A DNA stretch of 33,844 bases, taken from the IMG/VR virus record IMGVR_UViG_3300023293_000007, positions 1-33,844 of that record, one strand, 5' to 3'. The notes beneath the pieces are model-generated. The model was given only the letters and a program-made list of their open reading frames with translations. It was not told the DNA's origin and made no database searches. Source of the DNA: a virus (taxonomy: Duplodnaviria; Caudoviricetes). A program made the position numbers and the translations under genes. How positions within the stretch are numbered: the first letter of the stretch is position 1; each line of letters begins with the position of its first letter. Below are positions 545-32,018 of this stretch, one piece after another.

Positions 545-1197
545 GTCTAGCTGAACGCCCACCACCACCACTAGGGCCAGATTGGAAGCCTTGGGGTGAG
601 AGGTTGACGGACTTCTTAACTAGAACAAAGTCTAAGCTGTCATACTATCTTGCTGGTGAGTCTGCCGGCGAAGATGGCGTGTTATTGTGGGATAGGACCG
701 GCTATCCAGTAGTATCAAAGAATGGCGAGTGGAGGCAAATAAAATTAGCGGGAGGCAGTGGATCATTTGCATCAACTGTAGATGTAGTTGCCGCTAGCCC
801 AGATACAGCTTATGCCATACCCTTTGACCTTGTATCGGCTACTGGGACGGTGACTATTGATGCGGCTGACAGCACTAAGATAATATTTGCAGAGGCAGGA
901 GTGTACTCGGTGGCTGGTAATTTCCAGTTATTATCGAGTACGGCAGCAGTAAAAACTATATATCTTTGGACGATGTTAGATGGAACAACAGACTCAGTGT
1001 CGGTACAAACTGATATTAAAGACAGCGGGCAAGTTAAGACGGTAGGGGTGTCCTTTACGTTAACAATTGCAGCAGGGTCATATCTGCAAATAAAGTGGGC
1101 AGTTTCTAATATTGCATTAAGGTTAAAGGTGGTAGCAGCAACCGCATTTGCACCTACTACACGCGCAGCTCAAGTATCCATAACACGCGCATCCTAA
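541..1197 (+). CDS. virion structural/tail-associated protein with beta-sandwich C-terminus
   Basis: 218 aa, ATGA overlap with upstream stop; 'AGVYSVAGNFQL' and alternating beta-strand pattern; tail module position. Confidence 0.55.
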   Translation: MSLAERPPPPLGPDWKPWGERLTDFLTRTKSKLSYYLAGESAGEDGVLLWDRTGYPVVSKNGEWRQIKLAGGSGSFASTVDVVAASPDTAYAIPFDLVSATGTVTIDAADSTKIIFAEAGVYSVAGNFQLLSSTAAVKTIYLWTMLDGTTDSVSVQTDIKDSGQVKTVGVSFTLTIAAGSYLQIKWAVSNIALRLKVVAATAFAPTTRAAQVSITRAS

Positions 1198-1200
1198 AAA

Positions 1201-1215
1201 TGGTATAATCGAGCA
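1201..1215 (+). promoter_or_regulatory. putative late promoter, extended -10 (TGGTATAATCGAGCA)
   Basis: TGnTATAAT in an intergenic gap; same motif at 25209, 25771, 27664, 28275. Confidence 0.65.
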
Positions 1216-1236
1216 TATTTTGATACGGAAGTGCAG

Positions 1237-13082: not shown

Positions 13083-13432
13083 TGGAAGATTTGAAGTATT
13101 TTAAGCTATCAGATTTTGATTGCCAGGAGACTGGTGAGAATGAGATGAACGAGGATTTCTTGATAAAACTTGATAGCCTTAGACATGAATGCGGATTCCC
13201 TTTTATCGTCACCTCTGGGTATAGATCACCCCAGCACTCTATTGAGATGCGTAAAGCTAAAGCAGGAACACACTCTAAAGGAATAGCCTCGGACATTAAG
13301 ATAAACAATGGCGCTGAAGGCTATGTAATCGTTTCTAAGGCGATTCAGATGGGATTTAAGGGCATAGGGGTGGCTAAGACTTTCATTCACTTAGATGCTC
13401 GTAAGACCATGCCTGTTATCTGGAGTTATTAA
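13082..13432 (+). CDS. peptidase M15 family Zn-peptidase, probable endolysin
   Basis: 'YFKLSDFDC','SGYRSPQH','HSKGIASD','FIHLD' (H, D, H Zn ligands). Confidence 0.85.
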   Translation: MEDLKYFKLSDFDCQETGENEMNEDFLIKLDSLRHECGFPFIVTSGYRSPQHSIEMRKAKAGTHSKGIASDIKINNGAEGYVIVSKAIQMGFKGIGVAKTFIHLDARKTMPVIWSY

Positions 13433-13449
13433 AAAGCCCCCGAAGGGGC
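13431..13449 (-). terminator. rho-independent terminator of the leftward operon
   Basis: Minus strand GCCCC-TTCG-GGGGC-TTTTT at the convergence of two operons. Confidence 0.85.
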
Positions 13450-13483
13450 AAAACGGCAGAGTCAAACAAGGGTATAACTTAGA

Positions 13484-13717
13484 TTATACATCAAAACTAG
13501 GGTGATGCAACCTTAACTCTTCTTCAGTCGGTGGCTCCATAAATAAATCCTTAGCTTCCTCAATCTCTAGCCAGATCATATCTATCTCCTTTCTTCCGTA
13601 AACAGCAAGGGCAGACCCATAGATAACAGCCTCAGTAATAGAATCTAACCTTTCAGTAACGTCCGTTAAACCGTACTTAATAGCGTTTATTCTTAACTCC
13701 TCCAGGTATCCAGTCAT
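13484..13717 (-). CDS. hypothetical protein
   Basis: 77 aa, ATGA overlap, GGAG RBS. Confidence 0.7.
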   Translation of the reverse strand: MTGYLEELRINAIKYGLTDVTERLDSITEAVIYGSALAVYGRKEIDMIWLEIEEAKDLFMEPPTEEELRLHHPSFDV

Positions 13718-14121
13718 TGCAGTCTCTCCTCATGGTGTTTAATCTGACTTTCAAATTCTGCTAACATTTCTCGGTAGTCAGCCACATAAAACTTCTTTAA
13801 CTTTCGCTTATCTTCGTGCATCTTCTCAACAAAGTCCAGTCCGTAGTAATTAATCATCCATAACGTGTACTGTCCTTCAGCGCTTCCATGCTTCATGCCA
13901 AAACCATTGCACCCTTTGCACTGGGGATGAACATTCTCAATCTCTAAAGCCCAATAAGAACTAGAACCTTTTGCAATGAAATGTCCTCCGTCACAATCCT
14001 TCCAGTGCATTCTCTTATTATCACAAGATACACATTGAACCATTCCATATTCATCAGCCGCAGATATTCTTGCTAACTTCTGTATTTTTTCTAAACATTT
14101 CGCTCTTAAAGTTTTAGCCAT
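13714..14121 (-). CDS. ninG: NinG/Rap-like junction endonuclease
   Basis: 'CVSC...DGGHF...NVHPQCKGCN' His-Cys pattern. Confidence 0.85.
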   Translation of the reverse strand: MAKTLRAKCLEKIQKLARISAADEYGMVQCVSCDNKRMHWKDCDGGHFIAKGSSSYWALEIENVHPQCKGCNGFGMKHGSAEGQYTLWMINYYGLDFVEKMHEDKRKLKKFYVADYREMLAEFESQIKHHEERLQ

Positions 14122-14223
14122 TTTAAGCTCCGTTTAAGCTCCGTTATGCCATACCCAGTAGGGTAGCTTATGTTTTGCGCTAAAGTCCCTGTAACGTTCG
14201 ATATGGGGTGTTAAAACGCACAT

Positions 14224-14385
14224 CTAGGTACGGTTCCTGCCTGCCTTCTTCCTTTGCCTTTCCAAATCTTTAGACTTTTCCTTTTCGCGTCTATGTTCTA
14301 ACTCTTCATCGAGAACCATAAGGAACCAACCCCACATAAATACGGCTACTATGACAATGAATATTACTGCGATTATCTGTTCCAT
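14224..14385 (-). CDS. small single-TM protein (53 aa)
   Basis: MEQIIAVIFIVIVAVFMWGWFLMVLDEE... ; TAATG coupling; not in ORF track. Confidence 0.6.
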   Translation of the reverse strand: MEQIIAVIFIVIVAVFMWGWFLMVLDEELEHRREKEKSKDLERQRKKAGRNRT

Positions 14386-14837
14386 TATTCCACCTGTTTA
14401 CGTTTAAGTTTTGAGTAATCACTATCCATAGGGACGGTTAACATAACGCCTCCCTTTGTGGCTAGGTCATACACCTGATCTAAAAAGAAACACCATTCAC
14501 CTGCTGATAACTTGTTTGTGCTTTTAACCTGCCCTGCTACGATAGTAGACTTAAACTCGTAGTCTTGGGTCCCTAAGAATTTATGCTTCATTAGCATCTT
14601 GATGGTTGCTTCATCTTCTGGGGTGGGCTTTTCCTTTATCCACTTCCCTGCTATCTCCCTGCACCACATATGAAACAGTCTACTTTGCGATGTTGAGGTA
14701 ACAGGAACGTACGCTTCTACCCTGATAACACAAGGAGCGGTGTAGTCCCAAGCCTGTATTCGTTTGGTTAAGTACTCCATACGCTTCTCAATATCATTCC
14801 TTGAGGTGATTTTAACGTGATCGCCTTGAGTAATCAT
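14385..14837 (-). CDS. NinB/YbcN-like recombination accessory protein
   Basis: 'SQSRLFHMWCREIA...K.LMKHKFLG...STNKLSAGEW..FLDQV' pattern; adjacent to ninG-like gene. Confidence 0.7.
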   Translation of the reverse strand: MITQGDHVKITSRNDIEKRMEYLTKRIQAWDYTAPCVIRVEAYVPVTSTSQSRLFHMWCREIAGKWIKEKPTPEDEATIKMLMKHKFLGTQDYEFKSTIVAGQVKSTNKLSAGEWCFFLDQVYDLATKGGVMLTVPMDSDYSKLKRKQVE

Positions 14838-14974
14838 CGTGAAGTCCTCGCTACAATGTAACTAGCCGTTATTCCTAAGCTTACGAATGCCAGCGCGGTG
14901 CTGCCTGTAAAAAGGTGTGCAACGTAAGACAAGACGGCAAGCACAATTAATATTTTCTGGGATTTGGTAATCAT
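14834..14974 (-). CDS. small two-TM protein (46 aa)
   Basis: MITKSQKILIVLAVLSYVAHLFTGSTALAFVSLGITASYIVARTSR; ATGA overlaps at both ends. Confidence 0.6.
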   Translation of the reverse strand: MITKSQKILIVLAVLSYVAHLFTGSTALAFVSLGITASYIVARTSR

Positions 14975-15399
14975 ACAAGTTTCCTTCTCATCCATTGTGC
15001 GTTTAGGCTATCAGTGGTCTTTTTGGTAACGTAGATAGGCTTCACCCTCAAGTCATTTGCCGTACAGACCTTTCTTTTGTTTAACCTTCCGTTCATAGCC
15101 TGTCCTGTTATTCCACAGACCGCACCTAATTGCTTTAGTGTATAAATCTGATCTGTGATTAACTCTTTATGCTTTCCTATAAACCTAACCCAAATAACAT
15201 TATCCTTCTTGGGTCTAGCAAAAACAGACTCTTTAGCTTTTGTCTTGCCTCGTAACCTAACATAGATAAGATCATAGGACATATCATAAGCTTTAGCTAA
15301 TTCAACAATCGAATATCTTTTCCCTGAGATTAGCTTGTCGTTAGTCCCTGTATATTCCATCATGTGTGGCGGTGGTGCGCCAAGTTCTTTAACTGGCAT
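14971..15399 (-). CDS. hypothetical protein with two tandem HTH-like repeats
   Basis: 'YTGTNDKLISGKRYSIVELAKAY..RLRGK' and 'FIGKHKELITDQIYTLKQLGAVC..RLNKR'; GGAGGAG RBS. Confidence 0.6.
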   Translation of the reverse strand: MPVKELGAPPPHMMEYTGTNDKLISGKRYSIVELAKAYDMSYDLIYVRLRGKTKAKESVFARPKKDNVIWVRFIGKHKELITDQIYTLKQLGAVCGITGQAMNGRLNKRKVCTANDLRVKPIYVTKKTTDSLNAQWMRRKLV

Positions 15400-15625
15400 T
15401 GTCTTTCTCCTCCTTTACCCAACGATTACCCAAGATTAAATACTGCATCTTTCGCCAAAACCAATTAGGCTCTTTACCCTTATATGGAATCCAAGTCAGA
15501 CTCGTGGCCGACCCACCAAACAGGTAACACTTCCAATCAGAATACTCAGGTTGTGTAAAAGAGCATATATCCGCAGGGTCTAGGTAGACTGAGCCACTTG
15601 CAACCTTTTCTTTTAATTCGTCCAT
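15389..15625 (-). CDS. hypothetical protein (last gene of cassette array)
   Basis: ATG supplied by junction repeat; 'PNWFWRKMQYLILGNRW'. Confidence 0.75.
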   Translation of the reverse strand: MDELKEKVASGSVYLDPADICSFTQPEYSDWKCYLFGGSATSLTWIPYKGKEPNWFWRKMQYLILGNRWVKEEKDNAS

Positions 15626-15643
15626 CACTTCACCTCCAGTCGG

Positions 15644-15916
15644 TTATATTTTCTTAAAACAGGTAATGCCAGATGCGGCCTTTAAGGGGATGCGAGACGT
15701 TAATACAACGCACAGCATGGTCGGTGCTTCATTTGGCGTGAACTCATGGACCTCATGCATGTGATCAAGTGTGTAAGTAGTGCCTATAAACTTAGATTCA
15801 CTGGCATCATGTTGTTGATCAACATTACAGGCAGAGAGCAAAAGAAGGCTTGGTATAAGTACCCGTCTAATTGCATCTTTCTTACCCGTCTGATTGCATC
15901 TTTCGGATTCTTTCAT
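15644..15916 (-). CDS. hypothetical protein, possible lipoprotein (cassette)
   Basis: 'RRVLIPSLLLLSAC' lipobox-like; start from junction repeat. Confidence 0.65.
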   Translation of the reverse strand: MKESERCNQTGKKDAIRRVLIPSLLLLSACNVDQQHDASESKFIGTTYTLDHMHEVHEFTPNEAPTMLCVVLTSRIPLKAASGITCFKKI

Positions 15917-15920
15917 CACT

Positions 15921-16094
15921 TCACCCTCTCAAGTGTGGTAAGGGGGCGCTAAACATTTTAATAACATCATCTAGACTAATCATGGTTTCTCCGCCCAGTC
16001 CTTCTTTGTACATTTCTAGACCTGTGACCGTATCCTCTAGCGCGGCCGTATAGCCTTCTCTGTGTGCTTTTTGTAGCTCTTGCTCTTTCTTCAT
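15921..16094 (-). CDS. hypothetical protein, 57 aa (cassette)
   Basis: MKKEQELQKAHREGYTAALEDTVTGLEMYKEG...PHLRG; exactly fills the space between two repeats; not in ORF track. Confidence 0.7.
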   Translation of the reverse strand: MKKEQELQKAHREGYTAALEDTVTGLEMYKEGLGGETMISLDDVIKMFSAPLPHLRG

Positions 16095-16291
16095 CACTTC
16101 ACCCCCACTGGTGTTATTTCACCGCAAAGTATTTTTCGCGATTCTTCAATTAGCTCTTTACTAAAAAACACTTCTAAGTTGACAAGCAATTCACTAGGTC
16201 TTATCTCTGCCGTTTTCTCGTTTGACCACGTGCAATAATGCATCATCTCAACACACAGTCTTAGCGGGTATTTAATCTCTGGCAAATACAT
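16094..16291 (-). CDS. hypothetical protein (cassette)
   Basis: 65 aa, ends PVGVK, TGATG coupling. Confidence 0.75.
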   Translation of the reverse strand: MYLPEIKYPLRLCVEMMHYCTWSNEKTAEIRPSELLVNLEVFFSKELIEESRKILCGEITPVGVK

Positions 16292-16425
16292 CACTTCACC
16301 CCCACTGGTTTTAATAGATAAAATTTAAGGGTGTGCTTTGCCTTGAGCAAGCGATCTTCTGCGATGTCTCTCTCCCGCTCAAACCTTGCTATCGACTCTC
16401 TCAACTCTTTCTCTTCTCTGTTCAT
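16291..16425 (-). CDS. hypothetical coiled-coil protein, 44 aa (cassette)
   Basis: MNREEKELRESIARFERERDIAEDRLLKAKHTLKFYLLKPVGVK; not in ORF track. Confidence 0.7.
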   Translation of the reverse strand: MNREEKELRESIARFERERDIAEDRLLKAKHTLKFYLLKPVGVK

Positions 16426-16631
16426 CGCTTCACTCCTCTAACTCGAAATCTGTCGATTGTAATAATCCTCTTCGTCTTGCTTATCACCCTACAGCAATCA
16501 CCACGCACATGGTCTGCGTCTTTCCAAACCTCATCAATATCCGATATGCGCCCAACTTCAAACATGGAAGTCACTCGACCTTCTTTATCTGTAGGCAGTC
16601 CACACCATCCGCACCTATATAATTTACTCAT
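16422..16631 (-). CDS. hypothetical Cys-containing protein (cassette)
   Basis: 'YRCGWCG..GDCC', ends RGVKR. Confidence 0.7.
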   Translation of the reverse strand: MSKLYRCGWCGLPTDKEGRVTSMFEVGRISDIDEVWKDADHVRGDCCRVISKTKRIITIDRFRVRGVKR

Positions 16632-16894
16632 CACTTCACCCCCACTACAGGTTCATGCGTTTGTTCAAATATGTCAGGCTTGACAGGGTAGAAATTAATA
16701 CCATTCGGCTCCGGAATAATCCAGTCACCTACTTCAATGTTAACAACTTGGTTGTTGTGTATTGTGTGGACGTGCGGCTCATAGCGTTCTCTATTAACCG
16801 AACAAAGCGTTGATCTACACATTCCAGTCACTAATTTCCTATATCCTTTATATTGTTCTGCATCAATTACTACAGGTTTTTTTCTGAATTTCAT
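16631..16894 (-). CDS. common small phage protein of the 'KFRKKPVVIxAxQ ... GDWII ... YPVKPDIFEQT' type (cassette)
   Basis: Recognisable N- and C-terminal motifs; ends VVGVK. Confidence 0.8.
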   Translation of the reverse strand: MKFRKKPVVIDAEQYKGYRKLVTGMCRSTLCSVNRERYEPHVHTIHNNQVVNIEVGDWIIPEPNGINFYPVKPDIFEQTHEPVVGVK

Positions 16895-17133
16895 CACTTC
16901 ACCCCTACTGTGTTGCGTGGCACGATACTCAGGATATAAGGATGCTCTTCACTGTCGTAAGTGTTTATAGCACTATACTCACCAAGTTCTTCATGGTTTT
17001 CTACTGCGTTCATGCCCACCATACGTTTAGTATCAATTAGGGAAATTTCCCCTCTTCGGCACCGCGCCCTCAAGTGCCCTGTTAGGACACCGGAATAACT
17101 TACTGAGTAATCCTCTTCTATAACTAAAAACAT
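16894..17133 (-). CDS. hypothetical protein (cassette)
   Basis: 79 aa, ends TVGVK. Confidence 0.75.
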   Translation of the reverse strand: MFLVIEEDYSVSYSGVLTGHLRARCRRGEISLIDTKRMVGMNAVENHEELGEYSAINTYDSEEHPYILSIVPRNTVGVK

Positions 17134-17134
17134 A

Positions 17135-17446
17135 TTACTTCACCCCCACTGGTTTTAAATAAGGTGTGGCATGGTCGTATGGGGAACCCATAGCAACATC
17201 AAACCGATACTTACCTGTAGAGTCTCTAAACCTATTTTTCACAAGTACCCTAAACTTGAAGTCTCCTTCGTCGTCCCATGCCAAGCACTCGACCCAAGTA
17301 TCTTGGTCATGTGGGTCTATATCATCCCACCAGTTAGGGATTTCTTCTCTTAGATACATTAAAATGTTCTTTGCCTGAGTGTCGCTTATACAAATAGCCT
17401 TGATTAAAGCTAGCGCCTTCTCATCATCATCAATTACTCTACTCAT
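17135..17446 (-). CDS. hypothetical protein (cassette)
   Basis: 103 aa, ends PVGVK. Confidence 0.75.
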   Translation of the reverse strand: MSRVIDDDEKALALIKAICISDTQAKNILMYLREEIPNWWDDIDPHDQDTWVECLAWDDEGDFKFRVLVKNRFRDSTGKYRFDVAMGSPYDHATPYLKPVGVK

Positions 17447-17694
17447 CACTTCACCCCCACTACTTCAACACCGAAGCACGTTTTCATAAATCGGCTTGCG
17501 GCATCGTTAGATATTCTGCGTCTGTTGGCTACATCCTCATCGCTTAGACTAACCCACGGTTCAAGATTCATAGAGTCGTAACAAGCCATAGCTATGTTGC
17601 AATGCCACCCGTGTGCTAGGCTTCCAACCTCCATACCGTCTTCGACCATAGCTTTTTTAATAACATCCATTGCATTTTTCACTTCTTTAGTCAT
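17446..17694 (-). CDS. hypothetical protein (first gene of array)
   Basis: 82 aa, 'AHGWHCNIAMACYD', ends VVGVK; own GAGG RBS. Confidence 0.75.
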   Translation of the reverse strand: MTKEVKNAMDVIKKAMVEDGMEVGSLAHGWHCNIAMACYDSMNLEPWVSLSDEDVANRRRISNDAASRFMKTCFGVEVVGVK

Positions 17695-17719
17695 AATCTT
17701 ATCCTCTGTTTAATCTCTG

Positions 17720-18196
17720 TTATTCAAACATCTTTCGCATTGTATCCAAGTGGATACGAGCCTTCTCCTTCCTTTCTTCCTTCGTACCAGACTCTAATAG
17801 CTGTTCTGGCTTGTAAATCTTGTGGCATAACGTCCCTGCCGACCCTGTAAACACACCTTCGTTGGTCAACAGTCCTATAATTGCGTCAATATCAGGCCAA
17901 CTAAACTTATCATTCCCTGACCTTCTCTCTTTGTGGGCTAGGTCAAACGCTTCATTGATCTTTTCTCGACTAAACGTAGCAATCACCTTGCCAAACTCTC
18001 TTCTTGCTAGGTCAGATGATACTTTATCAGGCCATTGTGTCTGCATCTTCACTGTTCCATACAAATTCTGTAGTCGCATAAAGAAATAAGCGATTGAATC
18101 TTTATCTTCAGGACTAAAAGTCTGTGGCTTTTTCGTAGTCGTAGAAGTTTGAAGCGTAATCAGATCGTTTTTCGATAGCAGTTCGTTTATTTGCAT
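17720..18196 (-). CDS. putative replication protein P-like / helicase loader
   Basis: Overlaps 3' end of initiator; 'FFMRLQNLYG..W','WP.I' pattern; ATG 18196 after AAGGA. Confidence 0.5.
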   Translation of the reverse strand: MQINELLSKNDLITLQTSTTTKKPQTFSPEDKDSIAYFFMRLQNLYGTVKMQTQWPDKVSSDLARREFGKVIATFSREKINEAFDLAHKERRSGNDKFSWPDIDAIIGLLTNEGVFTGSAGTLCHKIYKPEQLLESGTKEERKEKARIHLDTMRKMFE

Positions 18197-18848
18197 TTTC
18201 CTTATTCCTCTTTTTGTCACTTGCTTCCCAGGTTTGGACACACTTCTTCCAGTTCTGCATCTTATTCTTGCCGATCATCCAGCCTTTGCTTCCATAGAAG
18301 TTCATAAAGTTCTGCGCATCAATGCCGTTATCTCTTTCAATACAGTATTCAGTCACTTCTTCAAGCGTAGGTATCTTTAACTTTTCCTCATTTCCAGGTA
18401 ACTCTGGGGATTTATCCCCTTTATTATTATCCTTATTATTATCCTTATCTATTATACTTGGTGTACACGTCAAGGGGGTATTGCACTCCACGTCAAGGGG
18501 GTCTTGATCTGTACGTCTAGGGGGGTACTGTACGTCAAGGGGTAAGCACGTTAAATATCTAGCCTCAACCTGGTTAGTTCCCTCCCTATAAGTAATGACC
18601 CTACTTAAATAGCCTAACCTCTCAAGTTTGGTTATCATCTTGCTTATAGTGGTAACTCCCAGGTTTATGCGCTCACCTATCTGAGAGTTCTTAGCGTAGC
18701 ATTGCAAGCCATTGACCACCGTAAAGCTGTAAACGACCCCATACAGGGCAGCATCGCTAAGAGTAAGCCTATCATCTTTCAAAAGGGCGTCCAATAAAGG
18801 AACAAACGTCATCGCGTTCCTTGTTAGTTTGCTACCAGTCTCTTTCAT
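18114..18848 (-). CDS. replication initiator (N-terminal wHTH, lambda O-like organisation)
   Basis: 'CYAKNSQIGERINLG..TISKMITKLERLGYL'; C-terminal 'PTLEEV..YC.ER..IDA..F..FY.SKGW.IGKNKMQNWK'; internal iterons; ATGA overlap. Confidence 0.8.
   Translation of the reverse strand: MKETGSKLTRNAMTFVPLLDALLKDDRLTLSDAALYGVVYSFTVVNGLQCYAKNSQIGERINLGVTTISKMITKLERLGYLSRVITYREGTNQVEARYLTCLPLDVQYPPRRTDQDPLDVECNTPLTCTPSIIDKDNNKDNNKGDKSPELPGNEEKLKIPTLEEVTEYCIERDNGIDAQNFMNFYGSKGWMIGKNKMQNWKKCVQTWEASDKKRNKENANKRTAIEKRSDYASNFYDYEKATDF
18419..18543. repeat. putative replication origin: four ACGTC(A/T)AGGGG(G)T iterons plus adjacent AT-rich 12-bp repeats
   Basis: Iterons at 18467, 18490, 18513, 18532; C(C/T)TTATTATTAT repeats at about 18419-18450. 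Confidence 0.8.
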
Positions 18849-19957
18849 ATACAAAACCTATCGTTTAATGTTATCCATGCTTTAGCGGCTGTCTGTGGCA
18901 CTACTCCATTGCCAAGTTGACGTACCCGATCAACTCTGTCTGGGCATTCGGAAATCACTCTGTCAATCCCCAACTCCCAAGAGCCGTCCATCCAAGAGGA
19001 AGCCCCATCAAACCCTCCACCCAATCGGGGTTCAGCTTCCCTGATGCTTTGTTCGCAACCATTACCGCGTTCGGTAGCTGACCCATCTGCGCTCTCTCTC
19101 CTCTCTCTATCTTGTCGAGTGTCGCCTGGTATCCGTTCGCACCCTTGTAATCCCTCGCTGATGGAGTCGGCCAATACCGCACCTGATCGCTCAGATTCGC
19201 GCCATAAGTTTTGGTCGGGTCGCTGACTGATATTCTCTGACCCTTCTCGTTCAATGTCCTGGGGCCGCCTTGAGCATCCGCTGCTCTTGGTGTCGCCCAG
19301 CTTGTTTTTTTGTATATCTCCACCGCCCTGGGGTTTACTTGCTCCCTCAAGTTTGCAGGAGCCGTCCTCCCTTTGCGCGTTGTCGTTGCTTGACGAATTA
19401 ACGCTTCTTCTGATCGTTGTGGCAGATGGTCCATTGTGTTTGGTGTTGCCCAAGATGTAGACTCGCTTTCTCTGGTGAGGAGCGCCAACTTCACGCGCTG
19501 AGAATATTCCCCACGTTGATCTATAACCATCTGATTCCAGTTCGCTAATGACTTCTCTGAGTCCGAGACTAATGTGTCCCTCGACATTTTCAAAGAAACA
19601 GGAAATAGGTCTAATTGATTCAATGTGTCGCCTGATATGAGGCCAAAGGTGCCTGGGGTCGTCTGCTCCAAGTCGTTTCCCTGCTGAACTAAATGGCTGA
19701 CAGGGATAACCGCCAGTGATGAGGCTAATCTTGTCTCGAAAGAGGTGTGCTGGGAAGGAAGTAAGATTGCTGTAAATAGGCGCTGGCTCCAGCCTCCCTT
19801 GTTCCATTTTCGAGAGTAGGTTTGCAATCGCATAGGCTTCGATCTCCACATAAGCGACGACTCTATGTTTAAACCCTGCAAGGTCAAGTCCTCGCTCGAT
19901 GCCACCATATCCAGAGCAAAAGCTGATGACAGTTGGTAATTCTTTGGTAGTATCCAC
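18845..19957 (-). CDS. DNA (cytosine-5)-methyltransferase, catalytic chain
   Basis: Motif I FCSGYGG, IV GYPCQPFS, VI ENV, VIII HQRKRVY, X LGNGVVP; GTG start. Confidence 0.9.
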   Translation of the reverse strand: MDTTKELPTVISFCSGYGGIERGLDLAGFKHRVVAYVEIEAYAIANLLSKMEQGRLEPAPIYSNLTSFPAHLFRDKISLITGGYPCQPFSSAGKRLGADDPRHLWPHIRRHIESIRPISCFFENVEGHISLGLREVISELESDGYRSTWGIFSAREVGAPHQRKRVYILGNTKHNGPSATTIRRSVNSSSNDNAQREDGSCKLEGASKPQGGGDIQKNKLGDTKSSGCSRRPQDIEREGSENISQRPDQNLWRESERSGAVLADSISEGLQGCERIPGDTRQDRERRESADGSATERGNGCEQSIREAEPRLGGGFDGASSWMDGSWELGIDRVISECPDRVDRVRQLGNGVVPQTAAKAWITLNDRFCI

Positions 19958-19959
19958 AT
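18955..19959 (-). CDS. overlapping alternative-frame protein: probable second methyltransferase subunit (W[AP]TP repeats, motif IX-like)
   Basis: 334 open codons; WATP, WATP, WPTP repeats; 'GKLNPDWVEGLMGLPLGWT'; ATG coupled to upstream TAA. Confidence 0.7.
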   Translation of the reverse strand: MWILPKNYQLSSAFALDMVASSEDLTLQGLNIESSLMWRSKPMRLQTYSRKWNKGGWSQRLFTAILLPSQHTSFETRLASSLAVIPVSHLVQQGNDLEQTTPGTFGLISGDTLNQLDLFPVSLKMSRDTLVSDSEKSLANWNQMVIDQRGEYSQRVKLALLTRESESTSWATPNTMDHLPQRSEEALIRQATTTRKGRTAPANLREQVNPRAVEIYKKTSWATPRAADAQGGPRTLNEKGQRISVSDPTKTYGANLSDQVRYWPTPSARDYKGANGYQATLDKIERGERAQMGQLPNAVMVANKASGKLNPDWVEGLMGLPLGWTALGSWGLTE

Positions 19960-20159
19960 TATTCGCCAGCCGCTATAAACTCGCCAATCGTCATGTCACC
20001 CACGACAGCCATTCTGCCTAGCGACTCCATACTCGGCATTCTTTTTCCGTTCATTAGCAGGCTTAGAGTGCTAACGGACACTTCTGAGCGACTCGCCATT
20101 TCATTTTGATTTATGTCTAGCTTGTACATAACCGCCCTTATTGATCGTCGAATATCCAT
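19959..20159 (-). CDS. XRE/Cro-like HTH regulator
   Basis: 'INQNEMASRSEVSVSTLSLLMNGKRMPSMESL'; first gene downstream of leftward promoter. Confidence 0.85.
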   Translation of the reverse strand: MDIRRSIRAVMYKLDINQNEMASRSEVSVSTLSLLMNGKRMPSMESLGRMAVVGDMTIGEFIAAGE

Positions 20160-20185
20160 GATTAATTCCTTATTAGTGAGATGCT

Positions 20186-20214
20186 ATAGTAAACTAAATA
20201 AAATAAATAGTCAA
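20186..20214 (-). promoter_or_regulatory. leftward sigma70 promoter
   Basis: TTGACT (20214-20209) - 17 bp - TACTAT (20191-20186). Confidence 0.8.
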
Positions 20215-20219
20215 ACCAT

Positions 20220-20248
20220 TTGACAGATGGTTATAAATAGTCCATTAT
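20220..20248 (+). promoter_or_regulatory. rightward sigma70 promoter
   Basis: TTGACA (20220-20225) - 17 bp - CATTAT (20243-20248). Confidence 0.75.
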
Positions 20249-20280
20249 GTCACCTCAACATCAGAGAAAAGGAAAAGAAA

Positions 20281-20427
20281 ATGAACGGATGGAATGGTAG
20301 TTGTGAGGATTGGTTACACGGTGATGAGAATTTAACAGACGAAGCTTATCCACCAGTGTCACCAGAAGAGATCGAAGAGGCGTTAGCGGATATTAAGCTA
20401 AGAGAGGAGAAAGACAATGAAAGCTAA
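20281..20427 (+). CDS. small acidic hypothetical protein (48 aa)
   Basis: ATG 20281 after AAGGA and downstream of the promoter; the track's 20227 start lies inside the promoter. Confidence 0.6.
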   Translation: MNGWNGSCEDWLHGDENLTDEAYPPVSPEEIEEALADIKLREEKDNES

Positions 20428-20740
20428 AAAGATTAAGCCATTAACGCCTGGTAACAGCATGAAAAGAATAATCGATACAATGAGCGCGGCAGATATGAAA
20501 CTGTCTTGGGCCAGGTGGGGAAATCCTCTTGATTTGTGGTTCGATGAAATGTGCAAAGAGATGCCTGGCAATAGAGGCTCTGACATACAATACCTCGAAG
20601 ATTTAGAGCGAGGGGATTACGATTGTCAGCAAGGTAATCCAGCGAAAGATGGTGAGTCACTAGGATACGAGATAGGCTACGGAGCGCGATACGTTCTGGA
20701 GCAGAATCAAAACCACCAAACAGAAAGGGGAATGAAATGA
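20417..20740 (+). CDS. hypothetical protein
   Basis: 107 aa, GAGGAG RBS; 'ERGDYDCQQG...YEIGYG'. Confidence 0.7.
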   Translation: MKAKKIKPLTPGNSMKRIIDTMSAADMKLSWARWGNPLDLWFDEMCKEMPGNRGSDIQYLEDLERGDYDCQQGNPAKDGESLGYEIGYGARYVLEQNQNHQTERGMK

Positions 20741-21336
20741 ACAGTAGCGAATCAATTAAAAACTTAGCGGTTGCGCTAGTAAAGGCACAGAAAGAAATGG
20801 GCGGGGCGGTTAAGGATAGCAAAAACCCCTTCTTTAAGTCTAATTATGCAGACCTAACCTCGGTGATTATGGCAATCAAAGAGCCTTTTAGTAACGCAGG
20901 GCTTGCTTACACTCAGTTTCCAGTGAGTGAAGATGGTCGAGTAGGCGTGGTTACAAGACTAATGCACGAATCAGGTGAATGGCTAGAGCATTCCTATACG
21001 CTTCCAACGGTAAAGAATGACCCTCAAGCCGCAGGTTCAGCCATAACGTACGCAAGACGGTACGCACTTCAATCTATTGCAGGAATACCAACGGCTGACG
21101 ATGATGCTGAAAGTGCAATGCTTCGGGGTAACGGGTTGCCTGTTGTAGAAAGGGCCATAATAGGTGACGACCAAGCCACTGAAATCAAAGGGCTGCTGGC
21201 CGAGTACAAGATAGACGTCAAAGCGTTTCTTAAATACTTCAAAGCCACCTCTGTCGATCTAATGCTTGCCTCTAACTACACTAGGGCAATAGCGACCTTA
21301 CAGGCAAAGGCTCCGAAGTCTGGGGGTGAGTCGTGA
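20737..21336 (+). CDS. erf: ERF-family single-strand annealing protein
   Basis: 'KNPFFKSNYADL','LMHESGEW','PQAAGSAITYARRYAL..IAGI..DDDA'. Confidence 0.92.
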   Translation: MNSSESIKNLAVALVKAQKEMGGAVKDSKNPFFKSNYADLTSVIMAIKEPFSNAGLAYTQFPVSEDGRVGVVTRLMHESGEWLEHSYTLPTVKNDPQAAGSAITYARRYALQSIAGIPTADDDAESAMLRGNGLPVVERAIIGDDQATEIKGLLAEYKIDVKAFLKYFKATSVDLMLASNYTRAIATLQAKAPKSGGES

Positions 21337-25733: not shown

Positions 25734-25770
25734 AATAAGTGGCTGTATGGAGGCTACTGAGCAAAAAATA

Positions 25771-25784
25771 AGGTATAATCGGGC
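25771..25784 (+). promoter_or_regulatory. putative late promoter (AGGTATAATCGGGC)
   Basis: Motif copy ending immediately before ATG 25785. Confidence 0.6.
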
Positions 25785-25967
25785 ATGATAAGAATATCAA
25801 CTGACGAAGATGTACACGAGTATGATCTGGACTTGATCCAAGATTACGCCACTGCGCTATTTGACAAGGACCAGTACCTTATGTCTGAGGTGCTATACTT
25901 AACAGAGCAGCGTATGGCGCGAGACTGTCACTGCTTTTCGGTTAACTGCGTCTGTGGCTTAGTATGA
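25785..25967 (+). CDS. hypothetical protein with C-terminal CxC..CxC
   Basis: 60 aa; ATGA overlap with terS. Confidence 0.65.
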   Translation: MIRISTDEDVHEYDLDLIQDYATALFDKDQYLMSEVLYLTEQRMARDCHCFSVNCVCGLV

Positions 25968-26383: not shown

Positions 26384-27659
26384 CCCAGAAGCAGAAATCC
26401 TATTACCTCCTAAGATGGTGTCTCTATTTGAGGGAGAGGCTAGATACCGATGCGCTCACGGAGGTCGTGGTTCAGCCAAGACGCGCTCCTTTGCCCTTAT
26501 GACTGCTGTAAGAGGCTATCAATGGGGAATGGGTGGAAAGCAAGGCCAGATACTCTGTGGTCGAGAACACCTTAACTCCTTAGACGAGTCCTCACTTGAG
26601 GAAGTCAAATCCGCTATTAGATCCGTCCCCTGGTTGCTTGCTTACTATGATATTGGTGAGCGATATGTTCGGTCCAAAGATGGAAACATTAACTATGTAT
26701 TCTCTGGCCTAAGACGTAACCTAGACTCTATCAAGTCAAAGGCTAGGATTATATTAGCGTGGATTGACGAGGCTGAGGGAGTGTCTGAGCTGGCCTGGAG
26801 TAAGTTGATACCTACTGTACGAGAAGATGACTCAGAGATTTGGGTAACGTGGAATCCAGAAACAAAGCATTCAGCTACTCATAGACGCTTCAGAGTTAAT
26901 CCTCCGTCAGATATGAAGATATGTGAGATAAACTATAGGGACAACCCTTGGTTTCCGGCAGTATTAGAGGCTGAAAGAAAAGACGATCAAAAGCTTAGGC
27001 CAGATACCTACGCCCATATCTGGGAAGGCGAGATGCTGGTTCATGCAGACGGCGCTTACTATGCTGTTGAGATGAGAGAGTGTGCAGCAGAAGAGAGAAT
27101 TACCCATGTGCCTTATGACCGCGCTGTTGGCGTTTTCACGGCCTGGGACTTAGGGATAGGGGATAGCACTGCAATTTGGTTTGCTCAGATGGTAGGGGCT
27201 GAGGTTAGGCTTATTGACTACTATGAGAGCAGTGGTGTCGGTTTAGACCATTACGCTAAAGAGCTTCAGAGTCGCCCCTATGTATACGACGGTCACATAC
27301 TTCCACATGACGTTAGGGTTAGGGAGCTTGGAACAGGTAAGTCTCGGCTTGAAACCTTAGATAGCTTAGGGATTCGGAACGTAACAATAGCACCGCAGCT
27401 TGGTGTTGACGATGGAATACAGGCTGTAAGATCAATGATCCCCAGGGCATGGTTTGATAAGGTTAAGTGTGAGAGAGGGGTAGACGCCCTACGTCAATAT
27501 AGGCGTGATTACGATGACAAGGGTATGACCTGGCGGGGTAGACCGATGCACGACTGGACCAGTCACTGTGCTGACGCATTTAGATACCTAGCGGTGGGCT
27601 ATAAGCCTGCAAGTAATTGGGGCGATCCAATTCGGCGCAATCTGCAAGGCATTGCCTAA
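26376..27659 (+). CDS. terL: terminase large subunit (PBSX/Terminase_3-type)
   Basis: Walker A GGRGSAKT, Walker B WIDEAE, TWNP, nuclease AWDLG and HCADAFRY. Confidence 0.95.
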   Translation: MDNPEAEILLPPKMVSLFEGEARYRCAHGGRGSAKTRSFALMTAVRGYQWGMGGKQGQILCGREHLNSLDESSLEEVKSAIRSVPWLLAYYDIGERYVRSKDGNINYVFSGLRRNLDSIKSKARIILAWIDEAEGVSELAWSKLIPTVREDDSEIWVTWNPETKHSATHRRFRVNPPSDMKICEINYRDNPWFPAVLEAERKDDQKLRPDTYAHIWEGEMLVHADGAYYAVEMRECAAEERITHVPYDRAVGVFTAWDLGIGDSTAIWFAQMVGAEVRLIDYYESSGVGLDHYAKELQSRPYVYDGHILPHDVRVRELGTGKSRLETLDSLGIRNVTIAPQLGVDDGIQAVRSMIPRAWFDKVKCERGVDALRQYRRDYDDKGMTWRGRPMHDWTSHCADAFRYLAVGYKPASNWGDPIRRNLQGIA

Positions 27660-27663
27660 TTTA

Positions 27664-27677
27664 TGGTATAATCGGGC
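27664..27677 (+). promoter_or_regulatory. putative late promoter (TGGTATAATCGGGC)
   Basis: Motif 4 nt after terL stop. Confidence 0.65.
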
Positions 27678-28245: not shown

Positions 28246-28274
28246 ACGTTAAAATGTAAAGTTTTGCTAAAAAA

Positions 28275-28289
28275 TGGTATAATCGGGCA
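28275..28289 (+). promoter_or_regulatory. putative late promoter (TGGTATAATCGGGCA)
   Basis: Intergenic; preceded by CTAAAAAA as in the 1201 copy. Confidence 0.65.
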
Positions 28290-28306
28290 CATAACTGGAG
28301 TTAGCA

Positions 28307-28930
28307 ATGGCATTAGGCACATACAGTGAATTACAGACCTCTCTGGCAGACTTTCTGAACAGGGAAGATTTAACGTCCGTAATCCCCACATTCATCGCTC
28401 TAGCAGAGGCTAGTATCAACAGAGATGTACGCCATTGGCGTATGGAAAACAGATCAACTGCAACTATTGACGGTCAATATTTCACAAGACCAGGTGATTG
28501 GGTTGAAACAATCAGACTTCATTTGACTACTGGAACCACATACATCATGGACCTGGTAAGTCAGAATGCAATGGCAGATAAACGTCAAGGCTCAGAAAAT
28601 ATTGCTGGAAAACCAAGATTCTACAGTCACTCAGAAGACCAATTTGAGGTATTCCCTACTCCAGATGAGTCGTATGCAGCAGAGCTGTTGTACGTCCAAA
28701 AGATTCCTGCACTATCAGATTCCAACACTACCAACTGGCTGCTCAGTGATTCGCCCGACCTGTACCTATACGGCGCTTTAATGCACTCTGCACCATACTT
28801 AGCGGAGGATGCAAGAGTTGCAACATGGGCTACAGGATACAGTGAAGCCGTACAGCGATTAAACTTAACATCTCAACAGTCTAAATTTTCAGGCATTGGG
28901 TTAAAGACTAAAATACGAGGATTAGGATGA
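28307..28930 (+). CDS. head-tail adaptor / tail tubular A-like protein
   Basis: 'TYSELQ..LADFLNR.DL..IP.FI.LAEA','FP.PD..Y','TNWLL..PDLYLYGAL..SAPYL'. Confidence 0.7.
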   Translation: MALGTYSELQTSLADFLNREDLTSVIPTFIALAEASINRDVRHWRMENRSTATIDGQYFTRPGDWVETIRLHLTTGTTYIMDLVSQNAMADKRQGSENIAGKPRFYSHSEDQFEVFPTPDESYAAELLYVQKIPALSDSNTTNWLLSDSPDLYLYGALMHSAPYLAEDARVATWATGYSEAVQRLNLTSQQSKFSGIGLKTKIRGLG

Positions 28931-29307
28931 GCTTTTCAAACTTCTTAGAGACAGAGATACTGGATCACGTTTTCGGTGGGGCTGCTTATACTGCTCCAAC
29001 CACACTTTACATTGCTCTATACACCGGCGCTCCTAATGATGCAGGTGGTGGAACTGAGGTGAGTGGAACTGACTATGCACGACAGACGTCTACCTTTACT
29101 ACTTCTGGTGACACTACTAGCAATGCAGGCGCAATTGAGTTCCCTACGGCTGGTGATAGCTGGGGTACTGTAACTCATGTCGGCGTATTTGACGCGCTGA
29201 CTACTGGCAATTTGCTCGCTTACGGCACACTGACTGCAAGTAAAGCTGTAGAAAGCGGAGACGTTTTCCGTATTATCGCGGGTGCTTTAGACATTACGTT
29301 AGACTAG
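28927..29307 (+). CDS. virion structural protein (tail-associated)
   Basis: 'MSFSNFLE..ILDHVF..Y.AP..LYIALYT','EVSG..YARQ','WGTVTH.G.FDA.T.GNLL'. Confidence 0.7.
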   Translation: MSFSNFLETEILDHVFGGAAYTAPTTLYIALYTGAPNDAGGGTEVSGTDYARQTSTFTTSGDTTSNAGAIEFPTAGDSWGTVTHVGVFDALTTGNLLAYGTLTASKAVESGDVFRIIAGALDITLD

Positions 29308-29308
29308 T

Positions 29309-29827
29309 ATGTTATATGGTGTCTATAAATATGGGCAGGCTGCATACTCTACTGCTGACCTAGAAGATGGCGTTGTTGCCACCTCTGCGTCTTCAAGTGT
29401 GGTGGTGGTGGCCGCAGTTACTGTTTCGGGCGTATCGCAAATATCTGCAACGTCAACGGTAGCTACGGATGCCATTAGAGTGCGAGAATCGTCCTCTACG
29501 GTCACTTCTGCATCTAGTGTAGCGGTAGCAGGGCAAAGGATACATTTAGCTGATACGGCCATTAACGGCGTCTCAGGGACTACAGGAAGCGGACAGGTCA
29601 TAAAACTGGGTTCGTCTGTAGTAAGTGCTGTTGCAGGTGTTTCTGCTGATAGCGTTAGGGTTAGACAGTCAGACTCGGCAATTACGGCAAGCGGTGGATT
29701 GATATGCTCTGGCATTATACTCTGGATTGACAATAATCCATCAGAGAAAAGCTGGGCTAATACTTCATCATCAAATGTAACGTGGGCAAATGTGCCCCTA
29801 AATGAAATAGAATGGGAGGCCGCTTAA
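29309..29827 (+). CDS. S/A/V/T-rich putative structural protein
   Basis: 172 aa with ~20-aa degenerate periodicity; tight spacing with neighbours. Confidence 0.6.
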   Translation: MLYGVYKYGQAAYSTADLEDGVVATSASSSVVVVAAVTVSGVSQISATSTVATDAIRVRESSSTVTSASSVAVAGQRIHLADTAINGVSGTTGSGQVIKLGSSVVSAVAGVSADSVRVRQSDSAITASGGLICSGIILWIDNNPSEKSWANTSSSNVTWANVPLNEIEWEAA

Positions 29828-31780
29828 ATGGCTGATACAACGACTACAACATACTCGCTAGTAAAGCCTGAAGTGGGCGCATCCGAGGACACTTGGGGCA
29901 CAAAGATAAACACCACGCTGGATACTCTTGACGACCTATTGGACGGCACAACCCCAGTTGTTGGCATGGACCTTAATACTCCAGATATTGATGGCGGTAC
30001 TGTCGATGGGATTACGTCTCTAAGCACAAGCACATCTGGCACAAGCAACTTTATAGCAGGCGTAAACGCAGGTAACTCCATTGAAAGCGGTGGTAATTAT
30101 AACGTCTTAGTAGGCGATGATGCAGGTACTGCTATTACGACTGGCGGCACTAACGTCGCTCTTGGTTTTAACGCCTTGAACGCAAGTACTAGCGCCTCTA
30201 ATAATGTTGCTATAGGCTCCAACAGTTTGCTGGTGAATACTACAGGGTCTTCAAATGTTGGGATGGGCCGAGACTCTTTAAAAGGCAACACTAGCGGAGC
30301 TAACAACGTAGCTTTGGGTACGTATGCACTAGATGCCAACACAACGGCAGACAACAACACTGCTGTAGGCTATGCTTCGCTTGGTGCTAATACCACTGGC
30401 GCGGGCAACGTCGCACTAGGGCGTCAGGCTTTAACGGCCAACACAACAGCAAGCTCTAACGTAGCAGTCGGGCAAGACGCCCTGCTTAGTAATACTGAGG
30501 GACATAACAATACTTCTGTAGGTACTAGCTCTTTAGCGGCCAACACAACAGCAGATTATAACGTAGCAGTAGGGCGCTCGGCTCTAGGAGGCACAACGAC
30601 AGGGGGGAATAACACTGCGGTGGGTTCGTGGGCACTAGACGCCAACACAACAGGTCAAGGCAATACAGCGACTGGCTATGGTTCTTTAGGTACCAACACA
30701 ACCGCCAATTTTAACTCATCTTTTGGTTTTAACTCTTTAATTAGTAACACAACAGGTAGCGATAATAACGCCTTTGGTACAAACGCCTTGGCTTCTGTTA
30801 CTACAGGCGCTAATAACGTAGCGATGGGTCGAGATGCTTTAAACAACAACTCAGCCAGTAACAACACTGCTTTAGGTCATAATTCCTTAAAGGCTAATAC
30901 AACTGCTTCAGGTAATGTTGCAGTAGGCTATCTAGCCATGGAGGACTCTACCACAGCCGCTAATGCTACCGCAGTTGGCTATGAGGCTTTAGCCAACAAC
31001 ACTACCTCTAATGGAAACCACGCTTTTGGCTTTAGAGCTTTGACAGCCTGTACCACAGGGTCGTCTAATATTGCTTTGGGGGGTCAATCGTTAGACGCTT
31101 GTACCTCGGGTGCTAACAACGTAGCAGTAGGTAATAATTCCGGAGGAGCACTCACAACAGGTATTCGTAACGTCATAATTGGTGAATCAGCAGGTGATCA
31201 CAGTCCTAGTCTTACTACTGGCAATTATAATGTTCTTATAGGTGCATACGCGGATGTAACTGCCGCTAGTGCTCAGTTTGCTATAGCTATAGGCTATGAC
31301 GTTTCAGGGGAGGCAGGTTACACAACAATTGGCCAGCAGACTACCGACATAAGAGCGCAACACGGCGTAGCAACTTGGGCGACAGTGTCAGATGAGCGAT
31401 ACAAGAAGGATATTGAAGACTGCACAACAGGGCTTTCCTTCATCAACTCATTGCGATCAGTAACTTGGAACTACAAGACTCTCGGCGAACTCCCAGAAAC
31501 CTTTAGCGCCTATGAAGAAGGTTCTACTGAAGTCTTTAAGAACACTCAAACTAACCACGGCCTTATTGCTCAGCACACCAAGGAGGCTATTGATGCTGAT
31601 AGCGGCTTGAAGGATGGCTTTAAACTTTGGGACGAAAGAGAAGATGGTTCTCAGGAAGTAGCAGAGGCCGCACTAATACCAATCTTGGTTAAAGCCATAC
31701 AGGACTTGTCTGATCAAGCAATAGCACAAGCCGACATTATCACAAACTTAACCGCAAGACTCGAAGCACTGGAGGCATAA
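29828..31780 (+). CDS. tail fibre/spike with 14-aa beta-roll repeats and C-terminal S74 chaperone
   Basis: N-terminal anchor '[28 protein letters not shown]'; many 'NTTGxxNxAxGxxAL' repeats; 'SDERYKKDI...GL.FIN.L...HGLIAQ...LVKAIQDL' and coiled coil. Confidence 0.85.
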
Positions 31781-31781
31781 T

Positions 31782-32018
31782 ATGTCACAAGTAGAAGATC
31801 GTAAAGCAGAACAACTAGCACAAGACTACTCAGCAATGGGTGATAGTGTAGTACTTATCACAGCCACTATCGCCGCAGAAGCTGATGAAGATAGCCAAGG
31901 AACAGTTGAGCGTAATGTTCAGCACCTAGAGCTTATGGTTGCTAAAGACGATTGGGGCGATGAGGACATGACTGCGGTTAATGCCGCCATTAGCTCTGGC
32001 AATGAGTACATATCATAA
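31782..32018 (+). CDS. small acidic protein after tail fibre
   Basis: GGAGG RBS; 78 aa. Confidence 0.7.
   Translation: MSQVEDRKAEQLAQDYSAMGDSVVLITATIAAEADEDSQGTVERNVQHLELMVAKDDWGDEDMTAVNAAISSGNEYIS

What the first reader, a model, noticed from the sequence alone, without database searches (positions are those of the whole stretch)
15389..17694. Cassette-like array of ~10 unrelated small genes joined by a 20-bp RBS/stop/start repeat
Seen: nine copies of minus-strand GTGGGGGTGAAGTGATG or close variants (+ strand starts 15623, 15914, 16092, 16289, 16423, 16629, 16892, 17131, 17444; spacings 291, 178, 197, 134, 206, 263, 239, 313). Each interval holds exactly one ORF and each repeat supplies the next start. 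Copies at 16625 and 17440 share 24 identical bp; copies near 16293 and 17137 share 22 bp. Six unrelated proteins end in xVGVK. In two cases the upstream gene stops in another frame or before the repeat, so conservation is at the nucleotide level. Other genes in this genome use ordinary, varied RBSs. Established: GG(A/G)GGTGA is an extended Shine-Dalgarno and TGATG gives translational coupling; ERF-type annealing proteins tolerate short homology. Inference: the repeat is a universal connector that lets accessory genes be gained, lost or shuffled as expression-ready cassettes with no dedicated integrase, possibly through the phage's own ERF/YqaJ/NinB/NinG functions.
Basis: partly seen in the sequence, partly recalled or inferred. 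Interest (0 to 1): 0.88.

Follow-up and report, generated by a model that had tools for sequence, protein, structure and literature searches.

The report
Shared junction shuffles phage mini-genes
Ten small genes of a salt-lake phage are joined by one repeated ribosome-site/stop/start sequence, and unrelated phages carry the same genes in other orders with the swaps mostly at that sequence, so it likely acts as a shared linker that lets different phages trade ready-to-express genes by recombination.

Summary
Confirmed. In a complete 33.7-kb lambdoid-type phage, nine copies of a 14-24 bp junction (GGGGTGAAGTGATG core: Shine-Dalgarno plus overlapping stop/start) join ten small genes between the P-like gene and ninB. 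The same genes, 85-99.8% identical, occur in other orders in at least four unrelated phage backbones. A sister phage with 99.7% identical capsid protein has wholly different content here. The 95 junctions from 22 loci give 56 combinations of 30 gene ends and 35 gene starts. Gene ends change partner at motif junctions more often than at other junctions (13 of 19 vs 4 of 23, p=0.0014). The connector is not universal: distant homologues of the genes, and 23 loci of more distant phage relatives, lack it. Some breakpoints are intragenic, the carriers encode different annealing proteins (ERF, Sak-like, gp2.5-like), and most junction pairs share less identity than efficient recombination needs. Best reading: a pool-specific boundary sequence used by short-homology recombination and kept by translational coupling; the mechanism is inferred. 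This is a new variant of the known linker/boundary-sequence model (PeSLs, cluster AU repeats). This scan has noted the same kind of junction on other DNA several times.

The parts
17720..18196 (-). P-like gene (158 aa) after the O-like initiator; left flank of the array. The 'P-like' label rests on position only
   Evidence: O-like neighbour hits phrog_270/428; this ORF has no family hit; 98% identical in sister phage L111
17692..17707 (-). Entry junction AGAGGATAAGATTATG, a motif-like RBS; followed by three different first genes in the window, L147 and L157
17446..17694 (-). Cassette J, 82 aa, ends VVGVK; widespread family of unknown function whose other members end near CFxVETK
17440..17463 (-). 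Junction copy J/I; 24 bp identical to copy G/F
17135..17446 (-). Cassette I, 103 aa, ends LKPVGVK; its 3' part is fused to another 5' part in L045/L184/L192/L162 (break at 17332)
   Evidence: Atlas hits below 0.9, no family
17131..17158 (-). Junction copy I/H (TAATATG variant) with TTAAAACCAGT tail; 22 bp identical to copy E/D
16894..17133 (-). Cassette H, 79 aa, ends TVGVK
   Evidence: also in L153, L157, L175
16892..16908 (-). Junction copy H/G
16631..16894 (-). Cassette G, 87 aa, phrog_419 (unknown function), ends VVGVK; outside homologues mostly end near TYEPV/TYEPAE
16625..16648 (-). Junction copy G/F
16422..16631 (-). Cassette F, 69 aa, Cys-rich; truncated in L023 and fused to E in L153
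16423..16436 (-). Junction copy F/E (weak variant, ATGA overlap)
16291..16425 (-). Cassette E, 44 aa, ends LKPVGVK
16289..16314 (-). Junction copy E/D; in L153 the shared 1402-bp block ends here and integrase-encoding DNA follows
16094..16291 (-). Cassette D, 65 aa, ends TPVGVK
   Evidence: also in G001, L161, L189
16092..16112 (-). Junction copy D/C
15921..16094 (-). Cassette C, 57 aa; stops in another frame here (LRG) but ends HVGVK in L045
15914..15927 (-). Junction copy C/B
15644..15916 (-). Cassette B, 90 aa, lipobox-like LLLSAC (motif recalled); stops before the repeat
15623..15639 (-). Junction copy B/A (GAGG variant, non-coding upstream)
15389..15625 (-). Cassette A, 78 aa, widespread family of unknown function; seven downstream partners in the pool; two copies 97% identical in G005
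14971..15399 (-). 142-aa gene before ninB; right flank. A look-alike follows the P-like gene directly in distant relatives L126 and L128 (empty site)
   Evidence: likeness judged by eye
14385..14837 (-). NinB/Orf recombination mediator
   Evidence: phrog_72, E 1e-17
20737..21336 (+). ERF-family single-strand annealing protein; candidate recombinase, untested
   Evidence: PF04404, E 2e-25

Best explanation
The repeat is a junction shared by a pool of co-occurring, otherwise unrelated phages, and it likely works as a recombination linker: a strong ribosome site whose bases also encode the last codons and stop of one gene and the start of the next, so that a crossover inside it would give an in-frame, translationally coupled new neighbour. 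Shown: shared genes, new orders, and breakpoints enriched at the junction. Inferred: co-infection of one host; short-homology annealing by whichever phage protein is present (ERF, Sak-like, gp2.5-like) or by host RecA; often one crossover in a long shared cassette and the other in the junction; and new genes acquiring the junction by microhomology at their own GGAG/GAGG end, after which selection for coupling keeps it.
For: Sister phage G002 (capsid 99.7%, portal 99.9%, terminase 99.8% identical) shares no array DNA and has two other cassettes here. G001 (DNA polymerase, primase-helicase, gp2.5-like; no capsid or terminase match to the window) carries B,J,I,A,x,F,E,D at up to 99.5% identity. 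L153 carries J-I-H-G-F-E at 99.8% next to an integrase. L184 and G005 are 99.95% identical over 2107 bp and differ by three cassettes removed motif to motif. 39 of 61 alignment ends fall at the motif in both partners, against 15% background; all pairs give 132 of 260 against 10.7% (rows not independent). Partner switching is 13 of 19 at motif junctions and 4 of 23 at others, p=0.0014. Conservation is at DNA level: GGG to GAG (Gly to Glu) in 11 of 56 combinations but synonymous GGA in 2; 6 of 30 ends are out of frame; 6 of 30 unrelated ends share a TTAAAACCAGT tail upstream of the ribosome site. Variants left of the core mostly travel with the upstream gene and those at the start codon with the downstream gene, with exceptions at several positions, as expected of crossovers that vary in place. 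The window and G001 share 1865 bp of tail-spike gene at 99.4%, suggesting one host. Independent contigs show the B-to-J join in 3 of 4 runs and the I-to-A join in 1 of 4.
Against: Unrelated junctions share a median of only 12 identical bases, and 10% of 1457 pairs reach 20. That is below the 23-27 bp cited for Red-beta and 31-34 bp for RecA (PMC3945230, passage). Six of 61 alignment ends are intragenic and 11 lie at array edges without the motif. Four of 23 non-motif ends also switch partner, and three mixed ends switch with and without it. The control rests on a home-made gene caller, hand-merged clones and small numbers. No recombinase, host or expression was tested.
Confidence: 0.7

Rival explanations
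1. Selection filter only: breakpoints arise by illegitimate recombination anywhere, only those that keep a ribosome site, stop and start survive, and the motif is an efficient coupling signal that hitch-hikes.
For: The core pairs with an anti-Shine-Dalgarno over 8 bases (-14 to -15 kcal/mol with a recalled E. coli-type tail). Intragenic chimeras and non-motif switches exist. Identity runs are short. The Phamerator paper (PMC3233612, passage) gives this as the main alternative model.
Against: It does not explain why the spacer is also fixed: 46 of 55 starts anchored only on G[GA]GGTG continue AAGT. Nor does it explain the shared upstream tail. Tightly coupled ea and nin regions of P22 and HK620 share at most 7-10 identical bases between start regions. 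Motif ends switch more often than non-motif ends.
Confidence: 0.15
2. A dedicated site-specific recombinase, encoded by the host or a helper element, cuts at a fixed position in the motif.
For: The core is strongly conserved, asymmetric and in one orientation. Several exchanges are precise motif to motif. The B-to-J join looks like a circular permutation.
Against: No shared hairpin: 7 of 8 junctions fold like shuffles. No integrase hit among 58 window ORFs or 42 of the 54 large ORFs of G001, G003 and G005; only L153 has one. Linkage of variants breaks at several positions rather than one.
Confidence: 0.07
3. The motif is mainly a regulatory site (an mRNA- or DNA-binding target for co-regulation, like SASs), or a C-terminal xVGVK tag, and shuffling is incidental.
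For: It sits at start codons of non-structural genes in one orientation, as SASs do (PMC3203893, passages). 24 of 30 gene ends are open in the xVGVK frame.
Against: Non-synonymous change is commoner than synonymous change, and non-coding copies keep the sequence, so a peptide tag is unlikely. The same gene occurs with and without the motif in the pool. Regulation alone does not predict the breakpoint excess.
Confidence: 0.06
4. The different orders are mis-assemblies of metagenome contigs at a short repeat.
For: All evidence comes from metagenome assemblies; no raw or long reads were available.
Against: Alternative orders recur in separate records (G001, L023, L043; L045, L184, L192) and carry their own substitutions. 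Logan contigs reproduce both the window's order and alternative joins. Shared runs are nearly all shorter than 31 bases.
Confidence: 0.02

Closest known systems
Boundary/linker sequences of phage modular evolution (Botstein; Clark et al. 2001 on HK620, seen only as a reference entry and as summarised in PMC3233612 and PMC2839356)
   Same: A short conserved sequence at gene boundaries, proposed as the target of homologous recombination that swaps single genes.
   Different: Here one sequence recurs up to 11 times in a genome, is itself the ribosome site plus stop and start, overwrites protein C-termini, and is shared by phages with no capsid or terminase match.
32-bp repeat around a five-gene cassette in Arthrobacter cluster AU phages (bioRxiv 10.1101/2020.01.10.891226, passages read)
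   Same: A repeat before and after each small gene, with deletions and translocations confined to that array.
   Different: Described as intergenic and within one phage cluster; the passages read mention no ribosome-site or coupling role and no sharing across unrelated backbones.
PeSL cassettes of T4-type phages RB49/phi1 (PMC2839356, abstract and Discussion read)
   Same: A repeated expression signal doubles as a recombination target for shuffling small unknown genes without a dedicated integrase.
   Different: PeSLs are promoter plus terminator stem-loop, a transcriptional unit, with mini-circles shown. This element is translational, has no promoter or hairpin, and circles are not shown.
Start Associated Sequences (SAS) of cluster K mycobacteriophages (PMC3203893, passages read)
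   Same: An asymmetric repeat containing a Shine-Dalgarno core just before start codons of non-structural genes, in one orientation.
   Different: Different sequence; SASs are dispersed, were proposed for translation initiation, and the passages read do not link them to shuffling.
Integron attC cassette arrays (recalled)
   Same: One gene per repeat interval; order and content vary.
   Different: No attC-like hairpin and no integron integrase.

Membership tests
Boundary/linker sequence | Short conserved sequence at boundaries of unrelated genes | tested here: met
Boundary/linker sequence | Mosaic edges between related genomes coincide with the sequence | tested here: met
   39 of 61 and 132 of 260 alignment ends; 13 of 19 vs 4 of 23 partner switches
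Boundary/linker sequence | Exchange shown to proceed by homologous recombination at the sequence | not testable with these tools
   only linkage of variants; needs a cross or plasmid assay
PeSL cassette | Sigma-70-like promoter in each element | tested here: not met
   13 promoter-like sites vs 12.7 expected in 13300-20400; none recurs at the junctions
PeSL cassette | Terminator stem-loop in each element | tested here: not met
PeSL cassette | Mini-circles formed between neighbouring elements | tested here: inconclusive
   the back-joint 17695 to 15627 carries the substitutions of the G001-type order, so it is no proof of a circle; only contigs were available
Integron attC array | Single-strand hairpin at each site | tested here: not met
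   8 of 9 junctions folded; 7 fold like shuffles and one hairpin lies upstream in coding DNA
Integron attC array | Integron integrase nearby | tested here: not met
   no integrase family among 58 window ORFs; host genome unknown
SAS | Asymmetric Shine-Dalgarno-containing repeat at starts of non-structural genes, one orientation | tested here: met
SAS | The cluster K 13-bp consensus | tested here: not met
   consensus in PMC3203893 differs from the logo here
SAS | Upstream 17-bp inverted repeats (ESAS) | not tested
   only direct repeats were searched

The most novel reading that the evidence does not exclude
The junction is a self-spreading standard part of one host's virome. It converts the tails of incoming genes, links phages of different families into one cassette economy of more than 40 small-gene families, and moves them as circular intermediates or through a dedicated host or phage factor that recognises the motif: an integron-like system built from a translation signal.
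Probability: 0.15. Interest if true: 0.85.

Novelty: new variant of a known kind. Interest (0 to 1): 0.58.

Why it matters
Whether phage mosaic joints are targeted to conserved linkers or are random breaks filtered by selection is a long-standing open question (PMC3233612 passage; PMC2839356 Discussion). This pool gives a natural test: one defined 14-24 bp junction, near-identical genes in unrelated backbones, and an internal control of non-motif boundaries. It also shows how a translation signal can become a scarless joint and rewrite protein C-termini. The cargo is almost all of unknown function (8 of 42 families hit PHROGs, only one with a named function), so it is a ready set of recently exchanged early genes to screen.

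Tried and rejected
Annotated phages: no relative of the array, only five 40-bp matches; gene G homologues there are hypothetical proteins. Host: the capsid search in genome contigs gave 13 loci in MAGs of mixed taxa (best 78%, Ca. Endobugula bin), so the host is unresolved. No RNA holder was listed, so expression is untested. Rfam gave no match in the window. Function of cargo: 42 of 43 pool families scanned; Pfam gave YopX plus two weak hits, PHROGs eight hits of which one is NinB-like; the Atlas gave no hit at 0.9 or above for gene I. A peptide-tag reading, a hairpin site and promoter/terminator cassettes were rejected. The first two versions of the control (13 of 20 vs 4 of 44; 13 of 20 vs 4 of 41) were inflated by clonal records and replaced, which merged 26 loci into 21 groups by hand and left out 3 mixed ends. 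One G001 junction (family 40) is an artefact of the record's ends and was ignored. The full records of the 120-135 kb contigs were not available, so their nature rests on 6-kb stretches. Look-ups of earlier scan notes by sequence and by place were empty. Nine paper searches showed no paper on a ribosome-site/stop/start junction shared across phage families; only listings were seen except for five papers read in part, and subscription papers such as Clark 2001 are not held.
Full report
Setting. The window is a complete phage genome with a 127-bp end overlap. It has a P22-like portal, ERF, YqaJ, SSB, an O-like initiator, NinB and NinG, and no integrase hit among 58 ORFs. The array lies on the minus strand in a run of genes from a cro-like gene through methyltransferase, O-like, P-like, the array and the nin genes to a terminator-like site at 13449-13436. 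Promoter-like sites occur at chance level (13 vs 12.7). I name the ten genes J to A in the direction of transcription. All 24 runs that hold the stretch are labelled salt lake metagenome, six of them possible sources.

Observation. Confirmed as described: eight copies by pattern search against 0.11 expected, a ninth weak copy, exact 24- and 22-bp identities, and 18 of 36 copy pairs with at least 14 identical bases. The core reads as a Shine-Dalgarno, a 7-base spacer and an overlapping TGATG. It pairs over 8 bases with a recalled E. coli-type anti-Shine-Dalgarno; the host's own 16S tail is unknown. Other window genes, and the ea and nin regions of P22 and HK620, share at most 7-10 identical bases between start regions, so tight coupling alone does not give this identity.

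Relatives. Pattern scans returned 110 viral and 55 metagenome stretches. Most hold one copy; those with several copies nearly all belong to one pool at 41-47% GC. A 22-base form occurs in only 12 stretches of 8 viral contigs. Sister phage G002 has 99.7-99.9% identical capsid, portal and terminase proteins, yet none of J-A; two other cassettes sit at the site. Of the 29 loci found with the P-like gene or ninB I counted motifs in the 23 more distant ones (three near-identical and three short loci left out): none has a copy, and in L126 and L128 the P-like gene runs straight into the pre-ninB gene. The array is therefore likely a recent insertion in this lineage.

Other backbones. G001 (51.6 kb; DNA polymerase, primase-helicase, ribonucleotide reductase, gp2.5-like protein) has the order C',B,J,I,A,x,F,E,D,y at up to 99.5% identity. 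G003 (ERF, another portal family, distal tail protein) shares only 221 bp with the window. G005 has a Sak-like protein with NinB and NinG. L153 has J-I-H-G-F-E at 99.8% in front of an integrase. G004 and contigs of 120-135 kb carry further copies but were not characterised. The window's capsid and terminase find no match in G001, G003, G004 or the partial G005. The window and G001 also share 1865 bp of the tail-spike gene at 99.4%, which suggests a common host; the host itself is unresolved.

Breakpoints. 95 junctions from 22 loci reduce to 30 gene ends, 35 gene starts and 56 combinations; 15 of 30 ends and 14 of 35 starts have more than one partner. 39 of 61 alignment ends in the window's array lie at the motif in both partners, against 15% background. 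Of the 22 others, 11 are at the array's outer edges, 6 are inside genes I and C, and 5 are at a window copy where the partner had no counted copy in range (rows are not independent). L184 and G005 differ by three cassettes removed from motif to motif in DNA that is otherwise 99.95% identical. After merging clonal records by hand, 13 of 19 motif ends and 4 of 23 non-motif ends have more than one partner (Fisher p=0.0014; mean pairwise switch 0.57 vs 0.15; three mixed ends left out). Contigs from eight runs reproduce the window's order (X7 bridges all nine junctions), the B-to-J join (3 of 4 runs) and the I-to-A join (1 of 4). Their loose ends fall both at motif copies and inside genes.

Scope. 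The motif is local. Of 38 distinct homologues of A, two have it upstream and one downstream, all pool members. Of 62 distinct homologues of G (from the best 80 of 559 found), one pool member has it on both sides and one outsider has a 2-mismatch match upstream. One of 120 homologues of J ends in GVK, the 93% identical one. A YopX-family gene in the pool ends NPELVGVK, and A has several different 3' ends after the same WVK codons. Genes therefore appear to acquire the junction on entering the pool. Conservation is at DNA level: the Gly codon changes to Glu in 11 of 56 combinations and synonymously in 2, 6 of 30 ends are out of frame, and 6 of 30 share an upstream tail outside the ribosome site (the junction set was chosen by 2 mismatches or fewer, but 46 of 55 starts anchored only on the first six bases continue the same way).

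Mechanism. Shown: shared genes, new orders, breakpoint excess, no hairpin, no shared integrase. Inferred: short-homology recombination during co-infection. Variants upstream of the core travel with the upstream gene in 44-48 of 48 pairs, and those at the start codon with the downstream gene in 35 of 35, with exceptions at several positions, which fits variable crossovers better than one cut site. The main difficulty is length: the median identical run between unrelated junctions is 12 bases, under the 23-27 bp cited for Red-beta (PMC3945230, passage). Exchange at the motif is thus probably infrequent per event, aided by long homology in shared cassettes and by the viability of every product. 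ERF is not required, since carriers differ in annealing protein.

Comparison and novelty. It works like the linker or boundary sequences of modular phage evolution (PMC3233612 passage; PMC2839356 abstract and Discussion) and closely parallels the 32-bp repeat of cluster AU phages (bioRxiv 10.1101/2020.01.10.891226, passages). It fails the membership tests for PeSLs, attC arrays and the SAS consensus. What differs is that the linker is the coupling signal itself and that it is shared across unrelated backbones. Nine searches showed no paper on that combination, but I saw listings only for all except five papers, no supplements were read, and subscription papers are not held. This scan's own notes report the same kind of junction in several other genomes (70 notes held the search words, 8 shown); they are unchecked and are not counted as support. 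Verdict: real, a new variant of a known kind, interest 0.58.

Noticed in passing
window 18845-19957 and 18955-19959 (-): Two long ORFs overlap in different frames over about 1 kb and both hit DNA methyltransferase families (PF00145/phrog_363 and phrog_1008). This resembles a two-polypeptide cytosine methyltransferase encoded in overlapping frames (recalled example: M.EcoHK31I).
   Followed up: no
window 30326-32190 vs G001 28408-30272: 1865 bp of the tail-spike gene and its flank are 99.4% identical to the unrelated phage G001, while the sister phage G002 has a spike only 53% identical: a recent receptor-binding swap.
   Followed up: partly
window 15397-15420; L023, L179, L189: A looser second junction family (GGAGAAA, giving KEKE-type ends) precedes 28 of 263 distinct gene starts in the pool, and some of these ends also switch partner.
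   Followed up: partly
L144:554-600: Gene A starts with the first six codons of gene J (MSKEVK) after the B junction, suggesting a deletion from J's start into A at a microhomology just beyond the motif.
   Followed up: partly
window 14837-14974 vs L144: The 46-aa gene before ninB is missing in L144; the break lies in ATGATTACC, shared by both start regions, a motif-free exchange at gene starts.
   Followed up: partly
window 16444; L153, L023: One extra base fuses genes F and E into a 113-aa ORF in L153 and truncates F in L023; the insertion is also seen in two runs.
   Followed up: no
window 1196-1218, 25763-25788, 27656-27677, 28267-28292 (+): A repeated TGGTATAATCGGGC-type sequence before structural gene blocks, possibly late promoters.
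   Followed up: no
L169/L170: A 43,066-bp contig is 100% identical to the window over all the DNA fetched (13092-20461), although the window is 33.8 kb with end repeats; the extra length is unexplained.
   Followed up: no
L153:1411-2490: The integrase behind the array appears as two ORFs (187 and 156 aa), each hitting phrog_1.
   Followed up: no
L368 (P22 eaD) and L367 (HK620 hkaG): Both genes end in AGIxxKGE yet are followed by different genes, a possible inter-phage boundary sequence in model phages.
   Followed up: no
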